Shown here one piece after another: positions 23,356-42,665 of a DNA stretch of 64,000 bases; position 1 is the stretch's first letter; each line of letters begins with the position of its first letter. The DNA is from a virus. The notes under the pieces are model-generated. The model searched no databases, was not told the origin of the DNA, and saw nothing but the letters and a program-made list of their open reading frames with translations. Made by a program: the position numbers and the translations under genes. The DNA lies in the IMG/VR virus record IMGVR_UViG_3300027985_001833, positions 14,539 to 78,538 of that record. The stretch is one strand, 5' to 3'.

Positions 23356-25638
23356 TTAACCAGCACTATCAAAGATGCCTTGTTTCCCTATGGTTATCAC
23401 AAAGCGTTCAACCGTGTCGGCCAGCCTTAAACTGATTTGGGCATGCATATCGCCCGCTGTCATCGTTATATCAGTGTTATTTTCATTATCAATTTTGATT
23501 ATTACAGCATCAGTAAATTGATCGCCTCTGAGCGCTCTTTTTCGCCGCCATTCTGGCAGAAAGAATGATGTTAAAGCAACTTTTGCCAATTCTCTGGTTA
23601 CAGCGTCATTGATAGCAAACACAATCCAATCGAAATTTTCTTGAAGTACGTGCTCATAATAAGACATCTGCTCGCGTTGATGTTTCCACATCCAAGTTGG
23701 ATCAACGTGTAACATCCTATCGCCCCATATGACAAAGTTGCCATCTACTTTCTTGATTGTGGCTATGCCAACAGGATTCAGCAACTCTTCATTGAGAATG
23801 GTTTCGCCTGTGGTCAACTCCAAAATTGCCGGTAGGGTGGCCGATGTTCCGGCTTGCGCCTTGTGATAACCGTCCCAATCAGCAGCCATTCTGGCCTCAC
23901 GACCATGAATCATACCAGTAAGTGACACCAATTTGCGCTTGCCTTCTGTTCCGCCAATTGGATCAGCAACATAGCCATACGAGGGCATGGCCATGACGGC
24001 AAAATCATTTCTGCCAAGCGTGTCATTTACCAATGTGATTGCGCCATTTTCAGTCAAAGTGGCACTGGGCAACTCATATCTATATTGATAATTTTTTGCT
24101 TCGGCATATGCCACTGCTGCCTTTTGTACTGCCGTTGCCGTAACTCCTGGGGTAGCCATTTTGACTAAGCCCATGTTGCGTCCAAAAATTCGATTGAATG
24201 GCGAATTACCAACATCCCAAGCTTGATTTAAATAATCAGAATCTGTAATATCTGCAACTCCATCAATTCCACCAGCCAAAGATTTTTCTGCTTCGACCAT
24301 AAAATAATCATCGGTTGCGCCACTGGCAGTCAAATCCGAACCCGCCGCAACCGTAATAGTTTTGTGATCATTATCAACAATACGGTATTTTTCCAATTTG
24401 CTGTTTGGTTTGTCAGGATACAGATAGCCGCCAATAAGTTGATCGACGATAAACGGTTTGTAATTGATCACCAATGTATCCGTCGCCACAAGTGGCGTGG
24501 CGCCTGCGGCCACGGTGAATGGCGGACTAAAAAGCTCATTATTCGGCGTGAACAAGCTGTCAAGCGTAACGGCACCTAAAGCACCATACTTATCTGATAC
24601 AGCATCACCGGCTGTGGGAGAAGTCATGGTGATTGTAATTTTTTGTGGCTTGTGATAGTCCGTGGTAGTTCCTAAAGTGAATGTTGGATTGCCGCCACTT
24701 GGGGAATTGATAGTGAAGTCGTGAATAACCGATGTAAGCACGGTTGTGGTAACCGTTGCAATTTTTCCATAATGGCTGGCCGGGCGGACATCGGCGGTGT
24801 GAAAACCCGTCCACAAATCTTCAACAAAAATTTCATAATTGCTATCATCATTATTGATAACATTCACCCAATATCGTTTATCGGTTGGATTGGTGGATAG
24901 ATTAGGATATTTTTTAATAAAATTACCATTTACAAACACAGATAAACCAAATTCAACATCAGGTTTTTCTTCCCCATCGTGAATCATATAGCTGACATAT
25001 TTGGTCTCGTTTTCCAATATTAAATAATACCGCAAGCTACCAGCGCCGCCACCGTGATCGGTTAGCATTGTTTGATCACTAGCAACCATAATGATGCCTG
25101 CAGCGGTATTGCCCACGATGGGATATTGAACGTTTGGAACTTGTTGAAGGACAACAACACCATCTTTCCATTGATCGGTGGCAAACGTGGATAATCCTGT
25201 ATCTAGAGTCGTTTCAGCAAGATCACCAATATCAGCCAAATCTGCTGTGTAAATTGCCTCTTTGCCACCCCAACGGCCACCATTGTGCGCCCGAATTGTC
25301 CCCATAGGTGTGAGCAAATCACCATATCTGGCGTACAAAGTTGCTGACGCTTGAACTTCGTTGCCATCTGTCACACGAATCAAAAAAAGTCCTCCTGCTC
25401 CGTTGGCTATGTCAAAATAATGACGCGCACAATCCGGTAGCAAAGATTCGCTGACATAATCTCCACATTTTTTAATCAAATCAGTTTTGCTAGTAACGGT
25501 TATCAATTCGCCAATTGGGCCTTTTTCCAAAATACCGGCATAACCGGCCCAACCCAATGCTGCCGGAGATATGCTTTTTTGACCTTCTTGCTCCAAGATA
25601 ACCGTTCCAGCCCCACGCGTTGGACCAAATCTTCTCAT
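23356..25638 (-). CDS. contractile tail sheath protein
   Basis: G..EKGP, G...+.+RV, LAGG.DG, SLTG..HG, LNP.GI..I, IWGDR, W.VF..ND, ERF. Confidence 0.93.
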   Translation of the reverse strand: MRRFGPTRGAGTVILEQEGQKSISPAALGWAGYAGILEKGPIGELITVTSKTDLIKKCGDYVSESLLPDCARHYFDIANGAGGLFLIRVTDGNEVQASATLYARYGDLLTPMGTIRAHNGGRWGGKEAIYTADLADIGDLAETTLDTGLSTFATDQWKDGVVVLQQVPNVQYPIVGNTAAGIIMVASDQTMLTDHGGGAGSLRYYLILENETKYVSYMIHDGEEKPDVEFGLSVFVNGNFIKKYPNLSTNPTDKRYWVNVINNDDSNYEIFVEDLWTGFHTADVRPASHYGKIATVTTTVLTSVIHDFTINSPSGGNPTFTLGTTTDYHKPQKITITMTSPTAGDAVSDKYGALGAVTLDSLFTPNNELFSPPFTVAAGATPLVATDTLVINYKPFIVDQLIGGYLYPDKPNSKLEKYRIVDNDHKTITVAAGSDLTASGATDDYFMVEAEKSLAGGIDGVADITDSDYLNQAWDVGNSPFNRIFGRNMGLVKMATPGVTATAVQKAAVAYAEAKNYQYRYELPSATLTENGAITLVNDTLGRNDFAVMAMPSYGYVADPIGGTEGKRKLVSLTGMIHGREARMAADWDGYHKAQAGTSATLPAILELTTGETILNEELLNPVGIATIKKVDGNFVIWGDRMLHVDPTWMWKHQREQMSYYEHVLQENFDWIVFAINDAVTRELAKVALTSFFLPEWRRKRALRGDQFTDAVIIKIDNENNTDITMTAGDMHAQISLRLADTVERFVITIGKQGIFDSAG

Positions 25639-26891
25639 GTTATCCTCCTTATTTCCACGTTAACATCGCCTGTGATTTTAAACTCATTCACGATGTATAT
25701 ATTTCTATCATCTCTTTGGTATCTTAACGTATTTTTGATGCTTATGTTAAGTAATCCTGTTTTCAAATTATCTTCCGATGTTTGTGTTGATCTAGGTTCG
25801 TAATTTTTTGTAATCACTACATCGTATTTTTCATCCAAGGCTACAGACGTCAATTGTTTATTATTGGCGAAAAATCTCTCGATTTCATTTCCTAATCGTA
25901 ATTGATCTTTCATCAAAGCCGTGATTCCAACCAAAGATATATCTATGGTTGTTTGATTTGGACGTATAATTTGTATAGCGGTTTTAGCATCTTTGTTTCT
26001 TACAGCGGTATTTTGACTTAATTCAACTGTATTTTTTTTTACAGCAATTATGTGAATAGCTGGAACTTTGTCTATTTCGATATAATTGACATCCGTGGAT
26101 AATGCCACCATCGGTTTGTAAACAAATTTGATCCAAATCAATTTACCAGCATCAACAGATGAATTCAATGTAATTATTTTTGTAGTAGGGTTATATGATT
26201 GAAATAAATCAATAAATTGATTTGGATCGTCTGTTTTGTTATAAACACTATCTATTTCGACAATGTCATATGGAGTTTCTAACGGATAATCATTTTCCAA
26301 ATCTATGACGGCAGTGATAGAATTCAATTCAACAATGAAATCACTAATTGGCCTAATACCATTTTTCAACGCTGGTATCAATGATCTAACGATTAAATCC
26401 TCTTCAAACTCCACATTTGAATTGTAAGCCACTAATATTTCAAACACGTGAGGTGTTACACTTTTATTTGTAGTGACCAAATTGATTATTATTTGTATTT
26501 TTCGCTCTGTTGCTGAAAATAACGATATGTTGGCAGCCACTTCTGTTTCTGTATTCCAATTGCTGGTATTTATTTCCCAAAACGTACCATTCCACCAATA
26601 TTCATTAGCGCCATCTGATAATCGAAATCCTAAGCTGGATAATGGTGTAATTCCGTCTTCATCTTTTTGATGATACGCAATTACATCAAAGCCAATCCAT
26701 TGTTTCACAGACAAAGGGTTGGCTATCCAGGTTTTTACATATAAATCAGATATTATTGGGTATTCACCATCTATGGTTGATAATTCTAAACGATTTTTAT
26801 TTGGATTTAAACGAGTGTTTGCGCCAAGCGTTATTTTAGTCCTATTGGATTCTTCAAAAATAAATCGTTTGAAAATTGTTTTTAATCTCAT
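25635..26891 (-). CDS. tail completion/terminator protein with N-terminal accessory domain
   Basis: immediately upstream of sheath; 418 aa. Confidence 0.5.
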   Translation of the reverse strand: MRLKTIFKRFIFEESNRTKITLGANTRLNPNKNRLELSTIDGEYPIISDLYVKTWIANPLSVKQWIGFDVIAYHQKDEDGITPLSSLGFRLSDGANEYWWNGTFWEINTSNWNTETEVAANISLFSATERKIQIIINLVTTNKSVTPHVFEILVAYNSNVEFEEDLIVRSLIPALKNGIRPISDFIVELNSITAVIDLENDYPLETPYDIVEIDSVYNKTDDPNQFIDLFQSYNPTTKIITLNSSVDAGKLIWIKFVYKPMVALSTDVNYIEIDKVPAIHIIAVKKNTVELSQNTAVRNKDAKTAIQIIRPNQTTIDISLVGITALMKDQLRLGNEIERFFANNKQLTSVALDEKYDVVITKNYEPRSTQTSEDNLKTGLLNISIKNTLRYQRDDRNIYIVNEFKITGDVNVEIRRIT

Positions 26892-27520
26892 ACTGTCCTT
26901 ATTATCTTGATAAATGCATTTCCAAACGATTTATTCATTTGTTGTTTCACCAATCTCATCACTTCAGGTTTGTCAAACGTATCATATATAAATGGCCTAG
27001 CTGGTATAACGATGGCCTTTGTAGATTTTTTTAATGGCAGCCATTTGTTGGGCATTTGATCATACAATTCTCTGACTGCTCCTGTCAATTCGTTTGGATC
27101 CATTTTGCCTTGAGAAACTTGCCAAAGTGCCAAAAACATACCTCTCATTTTGTCTGTTACTTTGATTTCTGTTCCTTGGTGTATTGTAATAGCAATACCG
27201 TATTCGGCATCATTTTTCATAACTCCAACAAAACCTTCCAATTTAGAAACATAATGAGTAACAGAGCCAAATAGTTGAGCACCTGCTCTATAACCAATCA
27301 ACGGCTTTGAATCACCTTTGATTAGTGCTGTCAATGGAGCGTTAGTTGCGAAATTGCCCTCTTTGATCGTTTCCCTGATCTTTGCCACTACTATCAAGCA
27401 ACTTAATTTAATAGCGATGTGCATTTGCTGATCGGCTATTGCTTGAAAGTGTTTTGGATTCAACGCCATTTCAAATTTCTTCCAATTTTTGTCTTTTTTA
27501 AATGTGAAATTAGACATCAT
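26888..27520 (-). CDS. neck / virion morphogenesis protein (HK97 gp10-like)
   Basis: NAPLT...KG.SKPL, IHQG, IPARPF. Confidence 0.75.
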   Translation of the reverse strand: MMSNFTFKKDKNWKKFEMALNPKHFQAIADQQMHIAIKLSCLIVVAKIRETIKEGNFATNAPLTALIKGDSKPLIGYRAGAQLFGSVTHYVSKLEGFVGVMKNDAEYGIAITIHQGTEIKVTDKMRGMFLALWQVSQGKMDPNELTGAVRELYDQMPNKWLPLKKSTKAIVIPARPFIYDTFDKPEVMRLVKQQMNKSFGNAFIKIIRTV

Positions 27521-29032: not shown

Positions 29033-29317
29033 CTAATCAAACAAGACTCCTGCCCAAAAGCTTTTTTTAATTTTAATTGCGGCTTCAATTGTAGTTTTAA
29101 AACCGTGTTCTTTCAACCATGTGCGAGCTTCATACACGGTCCATTTTGATGATTCAAATCTTATTGACTGCATCTCTACAATTCTCTTCCCGGCATCAAT
29201 TTTAATCCCCCAAATAACATCAACGCCATCTGGAAATCCTTTGGGTCTATTTCTGCGAAATTCTTTATAATTATTTGGAGATTTTTGACGCGCAGCGTGT
29301 TCATTTGGAAATGGCAT
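29033..29317 (-). CDS. small PxPNEHAAR-type phage protein with scaffold-like C-terminal peptide
   Basis: MPFPNEHAAR...QSIRF...WT..EAR.WL..H; ends KIKKSFWAGVLFD. Confidence 0.7.
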   Translation of the reverse strand: MPFPNEHAARQKSPNNYKEFRRNRPKGFPDGVDVIWGIKIDAGKRIVEMQSIRFESSKWTVYEARTWLKEHGFKTTIEAAIKIKKSFWAGVLFD

Positions 29318-35948: not shown

Positions 35949-37148
35949 TTAAACGCCAGTTCCAATGTTTTTTACATTCACAATAGCGGATGCCTCTTCG
36001 AAATTAGCATCTGCTTTTACTGTGATTGCGTATTGATTGACACCTTTGAAAATATCCCTTCCGCGTTCAATTCTTACATCGCGCCCAATTGCCACGATGA
36101 AATTACTCTCATGCGTGAGTATCATTTTAGGACTAGCGCTATAGGTCACTTTTACAGTATCGCCATCACCAATACTGCCACCAGCATCGCGAGCAATTGT
36201 CCCGGCGCTTGCGTCTAAAACATAATCCGTACCACTAACATACGGAGTTTGCGGCGGATATTTTGCCAAGGTGCTTGGCAAAACTACTACATCAGAGACA
36301 TTAGCGTTTTTAAGTGTAACAGCAGTGGTTCCATTCAGTTGAACGTGCTCAACGTATGTAGGTTGAAGATTCCAAACAGGAACCTCGATGATTGGAATAC
36401 CAAACGGCTTAACAAGCATGCCTTCTGCAGCAGCATCGCCAAGATTTGATGCCCTAGTGGCCATCTTTTCATAGTATAACTGTGCTAGATCGGGAGACAT
36501 AAAAAAACGCAAATTTTTCTTATTACGTCTGAATTTGGTTGGCATGGCGCGAATGGCCTTACCAAAAATACCAAGGCCGATATTCGCTCCTGCGGCGTCA
36601 ACTTGATTGCCTGATTCAGCAAGATATTGCCATCCATTCAAAAGGGCCAAATAGGTGTCCTTGATATATTGCGTAGTGCTTCCTCCATCAACAATATCAC
36701 CTTCAATTGCCGCAGGACCCAAGGTGTTGCCGAGAATATACAATTCTTCAAGGTCATTTGCCAATTGTTTAGCAAACATTTTGATGATATGGTCTTCTAC
36801 GTCATTCCCTTCCACATTGTGCTCAACAAAAGTGTCTCCAATTTCAACAGGGACCATAACCTCTTTGGGTTGCAGGGTAACTCTGGAAGTGGTAATGCCA
36901 CGTCGCAAACCAGGATCAACTGCCTCTTCTTTTGGCATTGCTGCTCGTTGGCCAATACCAATTTTTTCTACGTAAAGTTTTTCATTGCGAAATCGAACAG
37001 TTCTTGCACTTTTGGAGAGTACGGTCTCTTCAAAAACATAATCAAGAAATTTTTCGGCTTGCGCTGGATTCAATTTCCCTGCTGTTGCTAAAGATTCAGC
37101 AGTAATAACGGCTTTTTGAATCAATTCTTCGTTGCTAATTTTGTTCAT
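35949..37148 (-). CDS. major capsid protein (HK97 fold)
   Basis: G.LNP.QA..F+, +E.N+EG, A...ANDLE.L...G, MP.KF; follows protease/scaffold. Confidence 0.92.
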   Translation of the reverse strand: MNKISNEELIQKAVITAESLATAGKLNPAQAEKFLDYVFEETVLSKSARTVRFRNEKLYVEKIGIGQRAAMPKEEAVDPGLRRGITTSRVTLQPKEVMVPVEIGDTFVEHNVEGNDVEDHIIKMFAKQLANDLEELYILGNTLGPAAIEGDIVDGGSTTQYIKDTYLALLNGWQYLAESGNQVDAAGANIGLGIFGKAIRAMPTKFRRNKKNLRFFMSPDLAQLYYEKMATRASNLGDAAAEGMLVKPFGIPIIEVPVWNLQPTYVEHVQLNGTTAVTLKNANVSDVVVLPSTLAKYPPQTPYVSGTDYVLDASAGTIARDAGGSIGDGDTVKVTYSASPKMILTHESNFIVAIGRDVRIERGRDIFKGVNQYAITVKADANFEEASAIVNVKNIGTGV

Positions 37149-37184: not shown

Positions 37185-38351
37185 TTAATTAAAAAGCACT
37201 CCGCTCCATAGTGATTTTGTTATTTTCTTATCTTCACTGTCAGTTTCATTATCTCCAATTGATCTGGGAGCAGCTTTAGTCATCATTTCCTCCACACGTT
37301 TATCAATCTTTTCTACACGTTTGGTTAGATTCTCAACCAATTCATCCAACTTGGTCGCCGTTGGGTTGCTATTTTCATTTTTTTCTGTTTTTTCAATTTT
37401 ATCTATTTTGGCCACAGTTGCTGACTCGGTTGTTTTTTGAGTAAGCGTCGAAAGCATTCCTTGAATTGATTCAACTGCTTTGGTTAGATTCTCAACTCTG
37501 TCCGGGGACAATGCTTTAGCACGGGTAATAGCGTTTTCAAGTTCGTCCAAGGTGGAAAGTTTATTGCATTGGACTTCAACCTCATTTTCAATAACTTTTT
37601 TTTCATCCCCAATCGTTGCGGTAGATTCATCCTTTTTATCAGCGTCTAACGATTTAGCAATTTCCGAAACGCTGTTTGCAACTTTTTCCATAGCTTTTAA
37701 AACGTCTTCATTACTTGTTGCTTCAATAGTTTCATCACCTTTGTTTTCATTTTTTTCAATAACAGTAGCAACATCTTTCACTTCATCAGATTGTTTTGTT
37801 TTGTCCATTGGCTTTTCCTCCATTGTTTTGCTCTTAATTACATCAAATAACATAAGATTTGCCGGCATATCCACTACGGATATTTCCTCTACGAAAATTT
37901 CCGTCAATTCTCTTTTGGGTTGTATATCTGTACTTTTTTCCAACATTTTGGCTCTTGCTCTACCGCCGATGGAAAATCCTGTAATTGCGCCATCCTTAAT
38001 CTTTTTCCAAATATCATCATCCAACACTTTGACTTGTATAATCCAACTGCCTTTTTTGATCTTTTTAGTGCCTATCGCAATATCTGATTTCGTAATATAT
38101 GATTGCCTTAGTTGAAAAGACTTATCGAATAATGAATGTTGAACTCCTAATTTAGTTAATTCATTGTATTTAGTTAAAAAATTTGCTCCCGCTTCTTCGA
38201 TCACCCCTTCCTTGATTATTATATCACCATGTGCATCCACTATATGCGGAGCTAACACAACTCCTTCAATAATTCTTGCGTCTTTAGATTTTTCAATTGG
38301 TATATTCCAAGCAACATTTTCATCATGCTGATCATAAATATTTAATGACAT
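37185..38351 (-). CDS. prohead protease (XkdF-like) fused to scaffold
   Basis: G.VL.P...DAHGD, QH, GSW, W.KIK.G.ITGFSIGG, EISVVD.PAN; acidic coiled-coil C-half. Confidence 0.9.
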   Translation of the reverse strand: MSLNIYDQHDENVAWNIPIEKSKDARIIEGVVLAPHIVDAHGDIIIKEGVIEEAGANFLTKYNELTKLGVQHSLFDKSFQLRQSYITKSDIAIGTKKIKKGSWIIQVKVLDDDIWKKIKDGAITGFSIGGRARAKMLEKSTDIQPKRELTEIFVEEISVVDMPANLMLFDVIKSKTMEEKPMDKTKQSDEVKDVATVIEKNENKGDETIEATSNEDVLKAMEKVANSVSEIAKSLDADKKDESTATIGDEKKVIENEVEVQCNKLSTLDELENAITRAKALSPDRVENLTKAVESIQGMLSTLTQKTTESATVAKIDKIEKTEKNENSNPTATKLDELVENLTKRVEKIDKRVEEMMTKAAPRSIGDNETDSEDKKITKSLWSGVLFN

Positions 38352-38454: not shown

Positions 38455-39540
38455 CTACTTGCCCAAACTAGTTACATCAACATCTATGGTGCATCTGCAT
38501 TTATAATGATACGGTGGCAAAGCCAAACCAGCTTTGACTAAAGCAGCTGAATCCTTGATACCAATTTTCCCAGCAATATATCCTGGCGTAGAAGAAATTG
38601 CCATTATCTGCGCAGCCGTCATCCAGGGTTGAATTTGTTTAACATCTTCAGGTTTTTTAGCGGCAATTATTGCGTCCATTTGATATAAACCATCTTGAAC
38701 AGAGAACGTCTTACCCTCTAAATGACCACAACGCGGACAAGTTCTGTTATCTCCAGGATTTACAATTGTATATTGCGTGACTCCAACTTCTTGAAAGCTA
38801 CGCAATTGGGAAAACACCCTGGATGTGGTGGTCACATTTGCTGCAAATCCTTCAAAATATTGCTTAGCTGTACCGTTGAAACCGCCTGGAACGCTAATGT
38901 TCTGTGATACCTCTTTGAGTCTCTCTTGCAACAGCTTGCCCGCAAGGGCGGTATTTTTACCCGCTTCCAAAACGGTCTCTTTGACAGTCGTAACAACCGT
39001 GGCCAATACGTTTTCGTCATAATGTGAGCCAATCCAATACAATTGATGTTCTTTAATTGCTTCAATAGCTCCATAATCAATCAAATCATAAACCGGCAAG
39101 ATGCTCGCCTTGGCTTTGGCAACCGGTTCAAATTTAGGTGTTCCGTATCTCAAAGAACTATTGATTGTTCTGGTTGCTTTTTTGTATCCAACATCCCTGC
39201 CTAATCGATAAACATTCTTTAATTCTTGAGTAACAACTTTGGAAACAGGCGCGGCCCAAGAGTTGTATATCTTGTTTAATTCTTCTATTATAGCATTAGA
39301 TTTTTTGCCATTTTTTACCATCGAAGAAGCTTTGTTGATGGCTCGTGCGGAAACTTCGTTCCATTTGTTATTCATATATGAACGCATTCGCTTTTCTTTT
39401 CTTGCCATAGATGATAACTCAGAAATTTTGAGCGCTTTAGCGATCATATCGTCAAATAAATACGAAGCAATATAATTTTGCTCCAAATTATTCATGATCG
39501 TGTGTTTCGTCCATATCGCTAGACCACTTTTCTTCCACAA
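38455..39540 (-). CDS. head morphogenesis protein (MuF/SPP1 gp7-like)
   Basis: D.RTC..C..L.G..F and PPYH..CRC. Confidence 0.88.
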   Translation of the reverse strand: MWKKSGLAIWTKHTIMNNLEQNYIASYLFDDMIAKALKISELSSMARKEKRMRSYMNNKWNEVSARAINKASSMVKNGKKSNAIIEELNKIYNSWAAPVSKVVTQELKNVYRLGRDVGYKKATRTINSSLRYGTPKFEPVAKAKASILPVYDLIDYGAIEAIKEHQLYWIGSHYDENVLATVVTTVKETVLEAGKNTALAGKLLQERLKEVSQNISVPGGFNGTAKQYFEGFAANVTTTSRVFSQLRSFQEVGVTQYTIVNPGDNRTCPRCGHLEGKTFSVQDGLYQMDAIIAAKKPEDVKQIQPWMTAAQIMAISSTPGYIAGKIGIKDSAALVKAGLALPPYHYKCRCTIDVDVTSLGK

Positions 39541-41161
39541 AAGTTCTGGCTTTCAACAAGAAATCGATAAAAGCATTATCATCGTTATCATTGTTATACA
39601 ATGACTTTAAAGCTGTTATTTGTTGGCCTGGCTCCGAAGGTTCTGCTAAATTTTTCACAGCTTTTGCCATAGTCATCGAAAACGGAACATCAGGGTTAAA
39701 ATCATCAGGAAATGGGGGCAATTCCATTCCAAGTATATCTTGTAGCAAAATCCTTGCTATTTTAGGAGTCATACCACCGGTCTTTTCTGCTCCAGCAAGA
39801 ATTTTAACCAAATTTTGATTATCTGTTGTATTTGGCGTATTTGTTCTAAAAGTGTGATAAATTATACCCATATGCGGAAACATAATTCTATTTATGAATT
39901 CATCTTCAGAATTTCTTTCTGGTGAAAAAATTTGTTCGTCGGCCAAAATCCTGCTGCTATCCGCCGTGGCTCTAGTATAATCGTCTGCGTTTCCAACAAA
40001 AATTGGTGGCAAACGAAAAGATCTTCTGATGTTTTCCTTGGCATTTTTACTATAATTTTGAAAAAGTGCATCTTTGTGTTGATTATTTGTCAACGGTTTG
40101 ATATCTATTTTCATTTGTCCACCGTCTTCGCCTTCAACCAAACCTTCCGCCTCTAATAACAAAAATTTACTATAATCGTTTGAACCTTTTATTGATTCAG
40201 CATATTCTTGAATCCTTTGTATCGAGGCTTCATTCAATTGACCGTTTGAGACTGCAATAATCATCGATGGAACGTTGTTGTTCTTGAATGTTATAAAATT
40301 AATTTCTTCTGCTGCTCTCAAACCGTATATGGATAACAATTGCCCTATGATTCTAGGCAATCCATATGGTGTTCGTGGTGAATAAATTTTTCTATGGACT
40401 ATTTCAGTGGCTCTTTTCTCCATTGGCGTATTATCATCATATTCACCGGTATCACAATTCATGATTCTAGGATCACCAAATTCTTTGAACCATACAGTTT
40501 TATAACTTGTGCTGGTTGTGATATTACTTGTAGTCCTAAAATTTCTTGATTGAACATATTTTCTGAATTTTCGAGCTTGCTTAATAGTTTTTAATTTCAC
40601 AGAGCCATCTGTTTGAAGTTCAAGGATTGGACGATCATATGTGTAAGGTGTTTCTTCTAATTTCCCCAACAAAACTTGATAACTGGGTATGTGAGCAAAT
40701 GATTGAACGTTATTTATACCATCTCTTATCACCTCATAGTATGAATTGCCTGTAGACTCCAAGTCCTTTCGCAATTTCCTCCTGAAATCGGTATAAGATT
40801 CATCAGTACAATATCCAAAAAAATTATCCAAAAAAACTTTCTCTTCTGATGCTAATTTGGCAAGTTTTTTACCATTTTCCGGGACAATTCTGGAAACAAA
40901 TCTGTATCCGAATCCAACGATATTCACCTCCATGGCATCGAGGCAAGGCGTCAATTCGGTGTTTTGTTCTTGAAGCGTGGCCAAAGTCAGCATATCAAAT
41001 GGCGGCGGAATCACCTTCCCTTCGCTAATTAATGTGGCAAAGGGCTCATCTTCAATTTTTTTGCTTTTTCCAGGCGAGGGAATGGGTTCACTAGCCTTAT
41101 TGATATCTACAATTGTGGTTTTTATACCACGCAACAATTTTTTGTCCATATCACCCTCCAA
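39488..41161 (-). CDS. portal protein (PBSX family)
   Basis: PPFD, D.E.TGN.Y.E+.R, YGLP, F.NN.VP, FRLPP..+G, +F.PE. Confidence 0.93.
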   Translation of the reverse strand: MEGDMDKKLLRGIKTTIVDINKASEPIPSPGKSKKIEDEPFATLISEGKVIPPPFDMLTLATLQEQNTELTPCLDAMEVNIVGFGYRFVSRIVPENGKKLAKLASEEKVFLDNFFGYCTDESYTDFRRKLRKDLESTGNSYYEVIRDGINNVQSFAHIPSYQVLLGKLEETPYTYDRPILELQTDGSVKLKTIKQARKFRKYVQSRNFRTTSNITTSTSYKTVWFKEFGDPRIMNCDTGEYDDNTPMEKRATEIVHRKIYSPRTPYGLPRIIGQLLSIYGLRAAEEINFITFKNNNVPSMIIAVSNGQLNEASIQRIQEYAESIKGSNDYSKFLLLEAEGLVEGEDGGQMKIDIKPLTNNQHKDALFQNYSKNAKENIRRSFRLPPIFVGNADDYTRATADSSRILADEQIFSPERNSEDEFINRIMFPHMGIIYHTFRTNTPNTTDNQNLVKILAGAEKTGGMTPKIARILLQDILGMELPPFPDDFNPDVPFSMTMAKAVKNLAEPSEPGQQITALKSLYNNDNDDNAFIDFLLKARTFVEEKWSSDMDETHDHE

Positions 41162-42665
41162 TTAATCCTGGTTCTATTGTTCTTTTTTTACGTTTTTTTC
41201 TCAATGATGCCGTTATTGCAATATTGTATGCATCAAATAAATCTTTTGGGCCATTGGGGAAAAGAACAAATCTTTCAATTGCAATATGCACTCTTGGCGT
41301 TTTTACAAAAAACACTTTTTTGTCTTCAAAATCAGACGATAATTTCCAAGCACTTGTAATTTTGTCTTTTAAAGTTGTAATCGGCATAACTGGTACTCTG
41401 ATTTTGTTTTCTATTGCCGTATTTTCTGCATTATGGTATTCTTCTTCATATTTCAGATTTTGTATTTGTGCTTCTTGATATGCATTGGATTCAATGCCTA
41501 TTCTGATCGGATTGAATCTTTCATTGAAATCTAATATTTTCTTGGTTTGCGTATTGAATCTATAATGCCCCTCTAAATAATCTAAAAAATAACGATTAAG
41601 TTGTTGATCAATTCCAACTGCTACAATTGCAAACAAATTAGCAGTTTCTGATTGTTTAATTGCTAAATCAACGCCAACATAAATTCTTAGATCTTTTGGG
41701 ACATCAGAAAATTCTATTAACTGACAATCATCATATTGAAATATTTCGCCCTTCATGGCTTCGGTATCGCACATGTATTGTGTATTAAATATGATTAATC
41801 CAGATTTTTTTCTTTTTTCATGAAACCATTCAGGCGGATATTTTTCGTGCCAAGGCGATTGCCCTTTTTCATTCAAAGCTTTGATCACTTGGTGGTGATT
41901 TTCCAATTCACCTTTAATAAGATGTCCATACAAATCTTCGTAGTGATATCTAGTACCCAATCTGTGAAATTCGCCTCTGTGTTCTACTTCTGGATCAGGT
42001 GGTTCCAAAGTTGGTTCTAAAGTTTTGTAATACCAAGTTTGCGTCTTTTTACGCATGTGCTCGGTTCTTGAATTTTCTTCATCGATCAAGTCATCACCAA
42101 TTATAACGTCATAGTGCTTGCTGACAATAGTTGCGTCCACACCAACGCAAGTAACTGATGCTTCTTTGGCATTATGCGTCCTTGGCAACACCTCAATCTC
42201 TTTGTTATCCCACTTGTTAACCTTCCTTGGATCATAATATTCACCAAATATCTCAGTTAATAATTCATTGGATTCGAAATGGCCCTTAATTTCTTTCAAA
42301 AAACCTTCTGCATTTGGTGCCGTTTTACTAGCAATCAAAATCCTGATATTTGGATTTTTTAAAAGTAGATGAATAGTTTTAGCTACTGTGCATGTAGTGC
42401 TTTTTCCGGCGCCACGAAACGCTAATTGCAAATTATCTGGATGCTGAAATTGATAAATCATCATAGATAGGTGATATGGCTTAACGATGTAATTCAAAAT
42501 CTGTGTAGCCAAAATATCTATTCTGTTGTGTTTTAAAACTTGTTTACGAATCCATTGTTTTTTTAATTTATCACAATCCTTGATATCTCTGATGATTTCA
42601 GAACGCTCTTTGCGACCTGTACGGATGTGGTTTTCTAAATCAGGATCAAATAACACAGTTTGCAT
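41151..42665 (-). CDS. terL: terminase large subunit
   Basis: AFRGAGKST Walker A, DVIIGDDL Walker B, GTRYH..DL, YVGVDLA and D.FDA nuclease motifs. Confidence 0.95.
   Translation of the reverse strand: MQTVLFDPDLENHIRTGRKERSEIIRDIKDCDKLKKQWIRKQVLKHNRIDILATQILNYIVKPYHLSMMIYQFQHPDNLQLAFRGAGKSTTCTVAKTIHLLLKNPNIRILIASKTAPNAEGFLKEIKGHFESNELLTEIFGEYYDPRKVNKWDNKEIEVLPRTHNAKEASVTCVGVDATIVSKHYDVIIGDDLIDEENSRTEHMRKKTQTWYYKTLEPTLEPPDPEVEHRGEFHRLGTRYHYEDLYGHLIKGELENHHQVIKALNEKGQSPWHEKYPPEWFHEKRKKSGLIIFNTQYMCDTEAMKGEIFQYDDCQLIEFSDVPKDLRIYVGVDLAIKQSETANLFAIVAVGIDQQLNRYFLDYLEGHYRFNTQTKKILDFNERFNPIRIGIESNAYQEAQIQNLKYEEEYHNAENTAIENKIRVPVMPITTLKDKITSAWKLSSDFEDKKVFFVKTPRVHIAIERFVLFPNGPKDLFDAYNIAITASLRKKRKKRTIEPGLIGG

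What the first reader, a model, noticed from the sequence alone, without database searches (positions are those of the whole stretch)
29033..29317. Putative capsid cargo-addressing system: a small protein carries the scaffold's C-terminal peptide
Seen: this 94-aa protein ends KIKKSFWAGVLFD and the protease/scaffold 8 kb away (37185-38351) ends KITKSLWSGVLFN, 9 of 13 residues identical at the extreme C-termini. The codons differ, and the conserved Ser is AGC in one and TCA in the other, so the match is at protein level and not a recent DNA duplication. I saw no other ORF here with this ending. Known: scaffold C-terminal peptides bind the inside of HK97-fold shells (P22, herpesviruses), and encapsulins load cargo via terminal peptides. 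Inference: the phage reuses its coat-binding tag to load a basic PxPNEHAAR-domain protein into the prohead, as an internal or ejected protein or as an assembly modulator. This is my best candidate for an undescribed system, and the tag could be engineered.
Basis: partly seen in the sequence, partly recalled or inferred. Interest (0 to 1): 0.78.

Follow-up and report, generated by a model that had tools for sequence, protein, structure and literature searches.

The report
Scaffold-tail address tag on phage protein
A small phage protein ends in the same short peptide as the phage's own head scaffold, and related uncultured phages repeat this on up to three kinds of accessory protein, so the peptide is probably a natural label that loads proteins into the forming capsid, though loading itself is untested.

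Summary
Both genes lie on the minus strand. The 94-aa protein (29033-29317) ends KIKKSFWAGVLFD. The XkdF-type protease-scaffold fusion (37185-38351) ends KITKSLWSGVLFN. No other frame in the 78.5-kb phage record has this ending, and the codons differ.

The pattern recurs. In about 30 dereplicated related uncultured phages, the scaffold and one or two accessory proteins end in [KQ]-x-[FLM]-W-x-G-[VIL]-[VIL] at the extreme C-terminus. All of them share the window's capsid protein family. The accessory proteins fall into three families:
- the PNEHAAR domain,
- a second domain that I call X,
- a zinc ribbon.

Tails within one genome are modestly more alike than tails between genomes (p = 0.002-0.03).

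The PNEHAAR domain is a compact, basic, BRX-like fold followed by a disordered linker and tail. In half of 140 representative proteins it is fused to one of five prohead protease families. This argues that it acts inside the prohead.

My best reading (about 0.55) is a scaffold-mimicking capsid-addressing tag. Binding and packaging were not tested, and a single-chain AlphaFold trial did not dock the tail. It is a new variant of a known principle (T4 CTS, SaPI1 CpmB, encapsulin cargo peptides). This scan has already noted analogous tags in other viruses.

The parts
29033..29317 (-). Gene for the 94-aa tagged accessory protein (P0001). It has a PNEHAAR / BRX-like domain, a linker and a scaffold-like C-terminal tail.
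   Evidence: Translation. 22 homologues with E down to 1e-31. 79 viral loci. Shine-Dalgarno-like AAGGTGA upstream.
29087..29317 (-). PNEHAAR domain (residues 1-77). It is a compact four-strand sheet plus one helix, and it is basic (pI about 10).
   Evidence: AlphaFold2 pLDDT is above 90 over residues 11-80. The best solved-structure match is the plant BRX domain 6l0v (Foldseek prob 0.95; VIA Z 4.9, rmsd 2.6 over 51 residues). Pfam BRX matches 68 of 140 family representatives. pI.
29036..29068 (-). C-terminal tag KKSFWAGVLFD (residues 84-94), preceded by a short disordered linker.
   Evidence: pLDDT is 42-57. The tail is conserved in homologues while the linker varies from 11 to 39 residues.
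37185..38351 (-). Gene for the 388-aa prohead protease-scaffold fusion (P0002).
   Evidence: Pfam Peptidase_S78_2 (XkdF), residues 21-133, E 2e-27. phrog_3017 'head maturation protease' over residues 18-386. The C-terminal 248 aa are acidic (pI 4.7). In relatives this part is a separate ORF between the protease and the capsid gene.
37188..37220 (-). Scaffold C-terminal tail TKSLWSGVLFN (residues 378-388). This is the peptide copied on P0001.
   Evidence: The same motif ends the ORF directly upstream of the capsid gene in most of the 80 related loci.
35949..37148 (-). Major capsid protein (HK97 fold), the presumed receptor of the tail.
   Evidence: phrog_1623, E 2.5e-73. The AlphaFold2 model matches phage capsid proteins (phiRSA1, SPO1, P4 procapsid, P22) at Foldseek E about 1e-10, prob 1.0. 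The same family is present in every tag-bearing phage examined.
38455..39540 (-). MuF-like minor head protein (context, head module).
   Evidence: Pfam Phage_Mu_F, E 9.7e-7.
39488..41161 (-). Portal protein (context, head module).
   Evidence: Pfam Phage_portal, E 1.5e-13; phrog_12.
41151..42665 (-). Large terminase subunit (context).
   Evidence: phrog_38, E 1.4e-70.
23356..25638 (-). Tail sheath (context). P0001 lies in the late structural operon between the head genes and the neck and tail genes.
   Evidence: phrog_23, E 9e-25. A Neck1-like gene lies at 26888-27520. L003 shows the same gene order.

Best explanation
The last roughly nine residues, [K]-x-[F/L]-W-x-G-V-L(-F-D/N), form a modular address peptide. 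On the protease-scaffold fusion this peptide is the extreme C-terminal end, which in other phages is the part of a scaffold that contacts the inner face of the HK97-fold coat. The 94-aa protein carries a copy of it on a flexible linker. It is therefore drawn into the assembling procapsid by the same contact as the scaffold, or by co-assembly with the scaffold. What it delivers is a small, basic, BRX-like PNEHAAR domain. Other phages bring that domain into the prohead by fusing it directly to the N-terminus of their prohead protease or of a protease-capsid polyprotein. Shown here: the shared tail, its conservation and modularity across genomes and cargo families, its co-occurrence with one capsid family, weak co-variation, the disordered tail, and the protease-fusion contexts of the domain. 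Inferred only: that the tail binds the coat or scaffold, that the protein is encapsidated, and what the domain does once inside.
For: (1) The tail is unique to these two ORFs in the window and in the whole 78.5-kb record, and it is maintained at protein level with different codons.
(2) It recurs. In the first locus set, 25 of the 27 regex hits among 11,847 ORFs are scaffolds, PNEHAAR proteins or two other small proteins. A DNA pattern for W-x-G-hydrophobic-hydrophobic-stop gave 12 hits against 1 control in five whole related records, all on the coding strand, with 2-3 real tagged ORFs per genome.
(3) In the 80 capsid-centred loci, most ORFs directly upstream of the capsid gene end in the motif. 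The extra tagged ORFs belong to the PNEHAAR family, to 'domain X', to X+PNEHAAR fusions in either order, or to a zinc ribbon.
(4) The tail stays at the extreme C-terminus while the linker varies from 11 to 39 residues, and AlphaFold2 predicts it to be disordered.
(5) Tails within a genome are more alike than tails in shuffled pairings: BLOSUM 15.19 versus 12.81, p = 0.0024; identity 3.19 versus 2.89, p = 0.029; 29 genomes, 37 cargo tails. In the window, both tails carry the unusual two-residue extension F-D/F-N.
(6) Every tag-bearing phage examined has the window's HK97-fold capsid family. Relatives whose scaffold ends differently (...FESVKDF) have the PNEHAAR domain fused to the protease instead of free and tagged.
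(7) Of 140 representatives that hold the domain, 70 are fused to a prohead protease: S78_2 28, S78 23, DUF2213 11, Mu gpI 7, ClpP 1. In Synechococcus phage S-CBS3 and the Roseobacter CRP phages the domain lies inside protease-capsid polyproteins.
(8) Precedent: the 16 C-terminal residues of the 80alpha scaffold bind the coat, and SaPI1 CpmB copies them (PMC5644958).
Against: There is no direct evidence of binding or packaging. A single-chain AlphaFold2 model of scaffold tail, natural read-through linker and capsid protein left the tail at pLDDT 33-38, so no docking was predicted. This is a weak test, because it used one subunit, a short linker and no capsomer. Fine co-variation is modest, was not significant in the first eight-genome test (p = 0.065), and the genomes are related. 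Co-occurrence with the capsid family is confounded, because all head genes are inherited together, so the partner could instead be the portal, the protease or the scaffold itself. Cultured Bacillus elements whose scaffolds carry the same tail (BMBtp14, PBP180) have no second tagged ORF. The window has only one cargo, of unknown function.
Confidence: 0.55

Rival explanations
1. Assembly modulator. The small protein competes with the scaffold for the same coat site and tunes nucleation, capsid size or scaffold exit, as SaPI1 CpmB does. It is not carried as cargo.
For: This is the only experimentally established case of a small protein that copies a scaffold C-terminus (PMC5644958). Shared tails imply a shared binding site.
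Against: The gene sits in the phage's own late operon, in conserved synteny, and not in a satellite. Its body is a globular beta/alpha domain, not a helical dimer. Half of the surveyed representatives of that domain are fused to a prohead protease, which is an odd body for a size-determining competitor. Unrelated domains such as the zinc ribbon and domain X carry the same tail.
Confidence: 0.15
2. The tail has another shared partner. It could be a docking or recognition element for the prohead protease, the portal or a host factor (for example a C-terminal degron), shared by proteins that must be processed or removed together.
For: Only co-occurrence was tested, and all head genes are co-inherited. 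The single-chain model did not dock the tail on the capsid protein. Hydrophobic C-terminal ends can act as protease recognition signals (general knowledge).
Against: In the window the protease itself carries the tail, as a fusion. The tail sits where coat-binding elements sit in studied scaffolds. No conserved cleavage-like motif is shared upstream of the tail: scaffolds have GGTD...K, cargoes have LE.A...K.
Confidence: 0.15
3. Receptor rather than cargo. The BRX-like domain binds the W-x-G-V-L peptide by strand addition, as plant BRX binds the LAZY C-terminal motif. The small protein would then cap or chain scaffold tails, or its own tail.
For: The best structural and Pfam relative is the BRX domain solved in complex with a C-terminal peptide.
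Against: AlphaFold2 leaves the protein's own tail undocked. Scaffolds with this tail exist in Bacillus elements where tblastn found no PNEHAAR domain. Tagged proteins without the domain exist. Most domain-bearing proteins occur in phages with other scaffold tails.
Confidence: 0.08
4. Chance resemblance, or a recent duplication of a DNA segment, with no function.
For: The match is only 13 residues long.
Against: The next-best tail among 1029 frames scores 12 against 68-70. The codons differ. The motif is conserved at the same terminal position in dozens of genomes.
Confidence: 0.01

Closest known systems
SaPI1 CpmB, which mimics the 80alpha scaffold C-terminus (PMC5644958)
   Same: A small protein unrelated to the scaffold ends in a copy of the scaffold's C-terminal coat-binding peptide, there a helix-and-hook with the RIIK motif. 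The similarity is confined to about 16 terminal residues.
   Different: CpmB is encoded by a satellite, is a helical dimer, and redirects capsid size by competition. Here the gene belongs to the phage's own late operon, the body is a globular BRX-like domain that is elsewhere fused to proteases, several cargo families carry the tail, and the motif (F/L-W-x-G-V-L) is unrelated in sequence.
T4 capsid-targeting sequence of IPI-III and Alt, and the P1 DarB N-terminal signal (PMC9024508, PMC7411985, PMC3012670)
   Same: A short transferable terminal peptide shared by unrelated proteins addresses them to the prohead interior.
   Different: Those signals are N-terminal, and the T4 CTS binds the scaffold core and is clipped by the prohead protease. 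Here the tag is C-terminal, copies the scaffold's own end, and cleavage is unknown.
C-terminal targeting tail of the HK97 prohead protease gp4 (Duda, Oh and Hendrix 2013, cited in PMC9024508; the paper is not held, so this rests on my own knowledge)
   Same: A C-terminal tail brings a non-coat protein inside an HK97-fold shell.
   Different: That case involves a single protein. Here the tail is shared by scaffold, protease and separate accessory proteins.
Encapsulin cargo-loading peptides (PMC11664910)
   Same: A short C-terminal peptide follows a flexible linker on diverse cargo proteins and binds the lumen of an HK97-fold shell.
   Different: Encapsulins have no scaffold, protease or DNA packaging, and their consensus peptides are different. 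Here the tag equals the scaffold tail in a DNA-packaging phage.
Nested-gene shared C-termini (lambda C/Nu3, Mu I/Z, herpesvirus UL26/UL26.5; my own knowledge)
   Same: Protease and scaffold share one coat-binding C-terminus.
   Different: There the sharing comes from in-frame overlapping genes. Here the copy is in a separate gene 8 kb away with different codons.

Membership tests
T4-type capsid-targeting sequence (CTS) | The signal is an N-terminal propeptide of about 10-20 residues. | tested here: not met
   The shared peptide is at the extreme C-terminus in every case.
T4-type capsid-targeting sequence (CTS) | The signal is removed by the prohead protease after loading. | not testable with these tools
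   No cleavage data exist, and no shared cleavage-like motif was seen upstream of the tail.
T4-type capsid-targeting sequence (CTS) | The signal is sufficient to load a foreign protein into the head. | not testable with these tools
   This needs a reporter-fusion experiment.
Scaffold-mimicking protein of the CpmB type | The C-terminal residues copy the scaffold's C-terminal coat-binding peptide. | tested here: met
   9 of 13 residues identical, at both extreme C-termini. This recurs in about 30 genomes.
Scaffold-mimicking protein of the CpmB type | The protein is encoded by a satellite or pirate element and acts against the helper phage. | tested here: not met
   The gene lies in the phage's late structural operon, with the same gene order in L003.
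Scaffold-mimicking protein of the CpmB type | The body is a helical dimerising domain that redirects capsid size. | tested here: not met
   The AlphaFold2 model is a four-strand sheet plus one helix. An effect on capsid size is not testable here.
Encapsulin-type cargo-loading peptide | A short terminal peptide follows a flexible linker on diverse cargo proteins. | tested here: met
   The tail is disordered, the linker is 11-39 residues, and there are three cargo families.
Encapsulin-type cargo-loading peptide | The shell is HK97-fold. | tested here: met
   The capsid model matches phage HK97-fold capsids at E about 1e-10, prob 1.0.
Encapsulin-type cargo-loading peptide | The peptide binds a pocket on the luminal face of the shell protein. 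| tested here: inconclusive
   The single-chain read-through model left the tail at pLDDT 33-38. Multimer modelling was not available.
Nested-gene shared C-terminus (lambda C/Nu3 type) | The two proteins share the C-terminus because one gene lies in frame inside the other. | tested here: not met
   The genes are separate and 8 kb apart, and only 27 of 42 nt are identical.
Pfam BRX domain (PF08381), for the body of the 94-aa protein | A sequence match reaches Pfam's gathering score. | tested here: inconclusive
   P0001 itself has no BRX hit. 14 of 22 close homologues match at E <= 1, best 3.7e-5. 68 of 140 representatives match at E <= 1e-3, best 8e-8. One homologue scores 27.3 bits against the cut-off of 24.5.
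Pfam BRX domain (PF08381), for the body of the 94-aa protein | The fold is the BRX fold. | tested here: inconclusive
   6l0v is the top meaningful hit in both searches, but weakly so: Foldseek prob 0.95 with E 0.33; VIA Z 4.9, rmsd 2.6, 51 of 61 residues.
XkdF-type prohead protease (Peptidase_S78_2), for the 388-aa protein | The Pfam match is above the gathering score. | tested here: met
   96.1 bits against a cut-off of 24, residues 21-133.

The most novel reading that the evidence does not exclude
A whole clade of uncultured tailed phages uses a natural, modular C-terminal cargo-loading tag, (K)-x-(F/L)-W-x-G-(V/I)-(L/I), copied from the scaffold's coat-binding end. This would be a phage counterpart of encapsulin cargo peptides. 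In addition, the PNEHAAR / BRX-like domain it carries would be a general peptide-binding docking module of the prohead interior. Five unrelated prohead protease families, and a few enzymes (LigT-like, pyrophosphatase, UDG, methyltransferase), would have acquired it independently. The 94-aa protein would then be a two-headed adaptor that anchors a further partner to the coat.
Probability: 0.3. Interest if true: 0.78.

Novelty: new variant of a known kind. Interest (0 to 1): 0.6.

Why it matters
If the tail is a true address peptide, it gives a nine-residue, C-terminal, naturally modular handle for loading proteins into an HK97-fold phage head. It would also show that phages evolve cargo loading by copying their scaffold's end, the trick so far known from a pirate element (SaPI1) and, by analogy, from encapsulins. 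Separately, it flags a large phage domain family that I found in no paper searched: 3,708 cluster representatives, BRX-like, and in half of 140 surveyed representatives fused to a prohead protease. The role of that domain in head assembly is unknown and is now testable.

Tried and rejected
- Plus-strand reading of the given coordinates gives only stops; the genes are on the minus strand.
- Megablast of 13 kb against cultured phages found no match.
- Pfam and PHROGs on P0001 itself gave nothing.
- The first eight-genome co-variation test was not significant (p = 0.065). Only the larger set reached p = 0.002-0.03.
- Cultured relatives whose scaffolds carry the same tail (Bacillus phage BMBtp14, PBSX-like PBP180) have no second tagged ORF. 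Streptomyces phage Jay2Jay has only a degenerate, internal version of the tail.
- Archaeal XkdF viruses psiM2 and HHTV-2 end differently, so the tail is not universal to XkdF scaffolds.
- The genome-contig scan found only three MAG loci, all long fusions without the tag, so no cultivable host was identified.
- One of the 12 DNA-pattern hits (in G007) was a 5-codon artefact.
- The single-chain AlphaFold2 read-through of scaffold tail plus capsid protein did not dock the tail.
- No homologue of domain X is present in the window.
- The HK97 protease paper (PMC3709472) is not held.
- Literature searches for XkdF scaffolds and for BRX domains in phages found nothing relevant.
- Scaffold and capsid genes lie in the same frame in the window, but also in 15 of 52 relatives, which is about chance. 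I therefore make no read-through claim.

Full report
**Observation**

The coordinates are right, but the genes are on the minus strand.
- window:29033-29317:- encodes a 94-aa protein (P0001), MPFPNEHAAR...KIKKSFWAGVLFD.
- window:37185-38351:- encodes a 388-aa protein (P0002) ending KITKSLWSGVLFN.

Nine of 13 residues are identical and both tails are at the extreme C-terminus (BLASTP E 3e-4). Of 1029 stop-ended frames of at least 30 aa in the window, only these two have such a tail; the next-best BLOSUM score is 12 against 68-70. The full 78,538-bp virus record, of which the window is bases 14539-78538, contains exactly two such ORFs.

The codons differ: Ser is AGC versus TCA, Leu is TTG versus CTT, and 27 of 42 nt are identical. 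The similarity is therefore held at protein level.

**Context**

The neighbours form a standard head module, all on the minus strand:
- large terminase, 41151-42665
- portal, 39488-41161
- MuF-like protein, 38455-39540
- P0002
- capsid protein, 35949-37148

P0002 has an XkdF-type protease domain (Peptidase_S78_2, residues 21-133, E 2e-27), followed by about 250 acidic residues (pI 4.7). In related phages that acidic part is a separate ORF between the protease and capsid genes, which is the scaffold position.

An AlphaFold2 model of the capsid protein is HK97-fold. Its best matches are phiRSA1, SPO1, P4 procapsid and P22, at E about 1e-10.

P0001 lies 8 kb downstream in the same late operon, before a Neck1-like gene and the tail sheath. 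L003 has the same gene order.

**The body of P0001**

AlphaFold2 with 22 homologues (mean pLDDT 86.6) gives two parts:
- Residues 1-77 form a compact four-strand sheet plus one helix, with pLDDT above 90.
- A disordered linker and tail follow, with pLDDT 42-57.

The domain is basic (pI about 10).

tblastn against cultured phages hits only internal segments of large 'major capsid protein' polyproteins of Synechococcus phages S-CBS1 and S-CBS3 and of Roseobacter phages CRP-821/822/823/831. In S-CBS3 gp04 the domain (residues 125-196, 47% identity, E 9e-21) sits in front of an S78 protease and an HK97 capsid domain.

A profile search of 1.8 billion cluster representatives finds 3,708 proteins at E <= 1e-3, mostly with the domain at the N-terminus of 300-900-aa proteins. 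Of 140 representatives scanned, 70 carry a prohead protease domain from five families: S78_2 28, S78 23, DUF2213 11, Mu gpI 7, ClpP 1. A few carry LigT-like, pyrophosphatase, UDG or methyltransferase domains.

Pfam BRX (PF08381) matches 68 of the 140, best E 8e-8. The plant BRX domain bound to a C-terminal LAZY peptide (6l0v) is the top meaningful hit in two independent structure searches, but weakly so. The domain is thus a BRX-like module. Its frequent fusion to prohead proteases suggests that it acts inside the prohead.

**Recurrence of the tag**

Among the 79 viral loci found with P0001, every short free-standing homologue of the close subfamily ends in [K]-x-[F/L/M]-W-x-G-[V/I/L]-[V/I/L].

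In the eight records where the scaffold could be located, it ends in the same motif. Examples:

| Record | Scaffold tail | Other tagged tails |
|---|---|---|
| L005/L006 | KKEFWDGVI | small protein EKTFWDGVI; third ORF (zinc ribbon) KKGFWDGVI |
| L007 | KGLWNGLL | KGFWKGII and SKSFWNGVI |

A regex for the tail hits 27 of 11,847 ORFs, and 25 of those are these proteins. A DNA pattern for W-x-G-hydrophobic-hydrophobic-stop gives 12 hits against 1 control in five whole records, all on the coding strand. One of the 12 was an artefact.

A second scan centred on the capsid protein gave 80 more loci, with 53-70% capsid identity. Most ORFs directly upstream of the capsid gene end in the motif. The additional tagged ORFs fall into these groups:
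- the PNEHAAR family,
- a second family, 'domain X' (42 members in the loci, most with the motif or a degenerate form),
- X+PNEHAAR fusions in either order.

The window has no domain X gene.

Bacillus phage BMBtp14 and the PBSX-like element PBP180 have the same capsid family, and their protease-scaffolds end SLWDGVL and PIWDGLL. They have no second tagged ORF. Archaeal XkdF viruses end differently.

**Co-variation**

I defined cargo by homology rather than by the motif, and dereplicated to 29 genomes with 37 cargo tails. Scaffold and cargo tails of one genome are more alike than shuffled pairings:
- BLOSUM score 15.19 versus 12.81, p = 0.0024.
- Identities 3.19 versus 2.89, p = 0.029.

The first eight-genome test gave p = 0.065. 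In the window, both tails share an unusual two-residue extension (F-D and F-N).

At the level of presence and absence, relatives whose scaffold ends ...FESVKDF have the PNEHAAR domain fused to the XkdF protease rather than free and tagged. The genomes are related, so these p-values are indicative only.

**Mechanism**

The best-supported reading is that the tail is the scaffold's contact peptide for the coat (or for the scaffold lattice), and that copies of it on flexible linkers address accessory proteins to the procapsid interior. Three things argue that the peptide is a self-contained module: its conservation at the very end of the chain, the variable linker (11-39 residues), and its presence on three unrelated bodies. 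The protease-fusion contexts of the PNEHAAR domain argue that its place of action is the prohead.

That scaffolds bind the coat through their C-terminal residues, and that a foreign small protein can copy them, is established for 80alpha and SaPI1 CpmB (PMC5644958).

Not shown: binding, encapsidation, cleavage, copy number, and the function of the domain. I tried the one structural test open to me. The scaffold and capsid genes happen to lie in the same frame, so I read the last 38 scaffold residues through three stops into the capsid protein and folded that chain with 83 aligned rows. The capsid part folded confidently, but the tail stayed at pLDDT 33-38. This neither supports nor seriously weakens the idea, because only one subunit was present.

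**Rivals**

- A CpmB-like assembly modulator.
- A tail with another shared partner, such as the protease, the portal or a host protease.
- The BRX-like domain acting as receptor for the tail.
- Chance, which searches exclude.

The evidence for and against each rival is given in the Rival explanations section.

**Comparison and novelty**

The principle of a short shared terminal peptide that sends proteins into an HK97-fold shell is known from several systems:
- the T4 CTS and P1 DarB (PMC9024508, PMC7411985),
- the HK97 protease tail (cited there; the paper itself is not held),
- CpmB,
- encapsulin cargo peptides.

This case differs from each in at least one defining feature. It is C-terminal rather than N-terminal. 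It is encoded by the phage rather than a satellite. It involves several cargo families rather than one protein. It operates in a phage that has a scaffold and a protease, unlike an encapsulin. I found no paper on this motif, on XkdF scaffold tails, or on BRX-like domains in phages.

Earlier unchecked notes of this scan report analogous scaffold-mimicking tags in magroviruses and other phages, so the general phenomenon has been met before on other DNA.

I rate the finding a new variant of a known kind, of solid but not exceptional interest. The comparative evidence is good, the window itself holds a single cargo of unknown function, and the key step is untested.

Noticed in passing
window:29087-29317 (-), and proteins P0024-P0170: The PNEHAAR domain is a large phage family that I found described in no paper searched: 3,708 cluster representatives, BRX-like by Pfam and by fold. 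It is fused N-terminally to five different prohead protease families. It is occasionally fused to LigT-like phosphoesterase, inorganic pyrophosphatase, UDG and D12 methyltransferase domains.
   Followed up: partly
L007:19037-19882, L100:15072-15824, L105:16966-17514 and 39 other ORFs in related loci: A second tagged family, 'domain X' (N-terminal V-H-K-A..L..G-E-S motif, 120-260 aa), lies a few kb downstream of the capsid gene. It often has a double-Trp tail, G-W-x-x-T-x-K-x-F-W-x-G-V-L. Some members add an N-terminal module with L-P-D-x-A-F-A ... L-P-H-H. It has no Pfam match and no homologue in the window.
   Followed up: partly
L005:16166-16417 (= L006): A small protein of about 76 aa has two CxxC pairs (zinc-ribbon-like) and carries exactly the tail variant (FWDGVI) of its genome's scaffold and PNEHAAR protein. 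P0020 is a PNEHAAR protein with a Cys-rich extension in place of the tail.
   Followed up: no
L060:2438-3346, L066:2071-2979: In relatives with the same capsid family but a PNEHAAR-XkdF protease fusion, the scaffold ends N-P-F-x-S-x-F-E-S-V-K-D-F. This may be an alternative coat-binding tail.
   Followed up: no
Scaffold ORFs of L100-L179, about 12-20 residues before the tail: An acidic motif, (E/D)-G-(E/D)-G-G-T-D, is conserved just upstream of the scaffold tails and is absent from the cargo proteins. It could be a protease cut site or a hinge.
   Followed up: no
L085:19971-21248 (Streptomyces phage Jay2Jay gp54): The protease-scaffold of this cultured 133-kb phage ends G-S-K-W-G-G-H-F-L-S-V-S-D-I-K. 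This is a degenerate tail-like W-G-G motif eight residues from the end, and the phage has the same capsid family.
   Followed up: no
window:37149-37187 (-): The protease-scaffold and capsid genes are in the same frame, separated by 13 codons that hold three stops (TAA, TGA, TAA). 15 of 52 relatives are also in frame, which is about what chance gives, so there is no sign of programmed read-through.
   Followed up: yes
window:32411-33679 (-): A 422-aa protein between the head and neck genes matches tail-fibre and head-decoration PHROGs (phrog_8745 E 3e-29, phrog_2647). It may be an Ig-like decoration or fibre protein.
   Followed up: no
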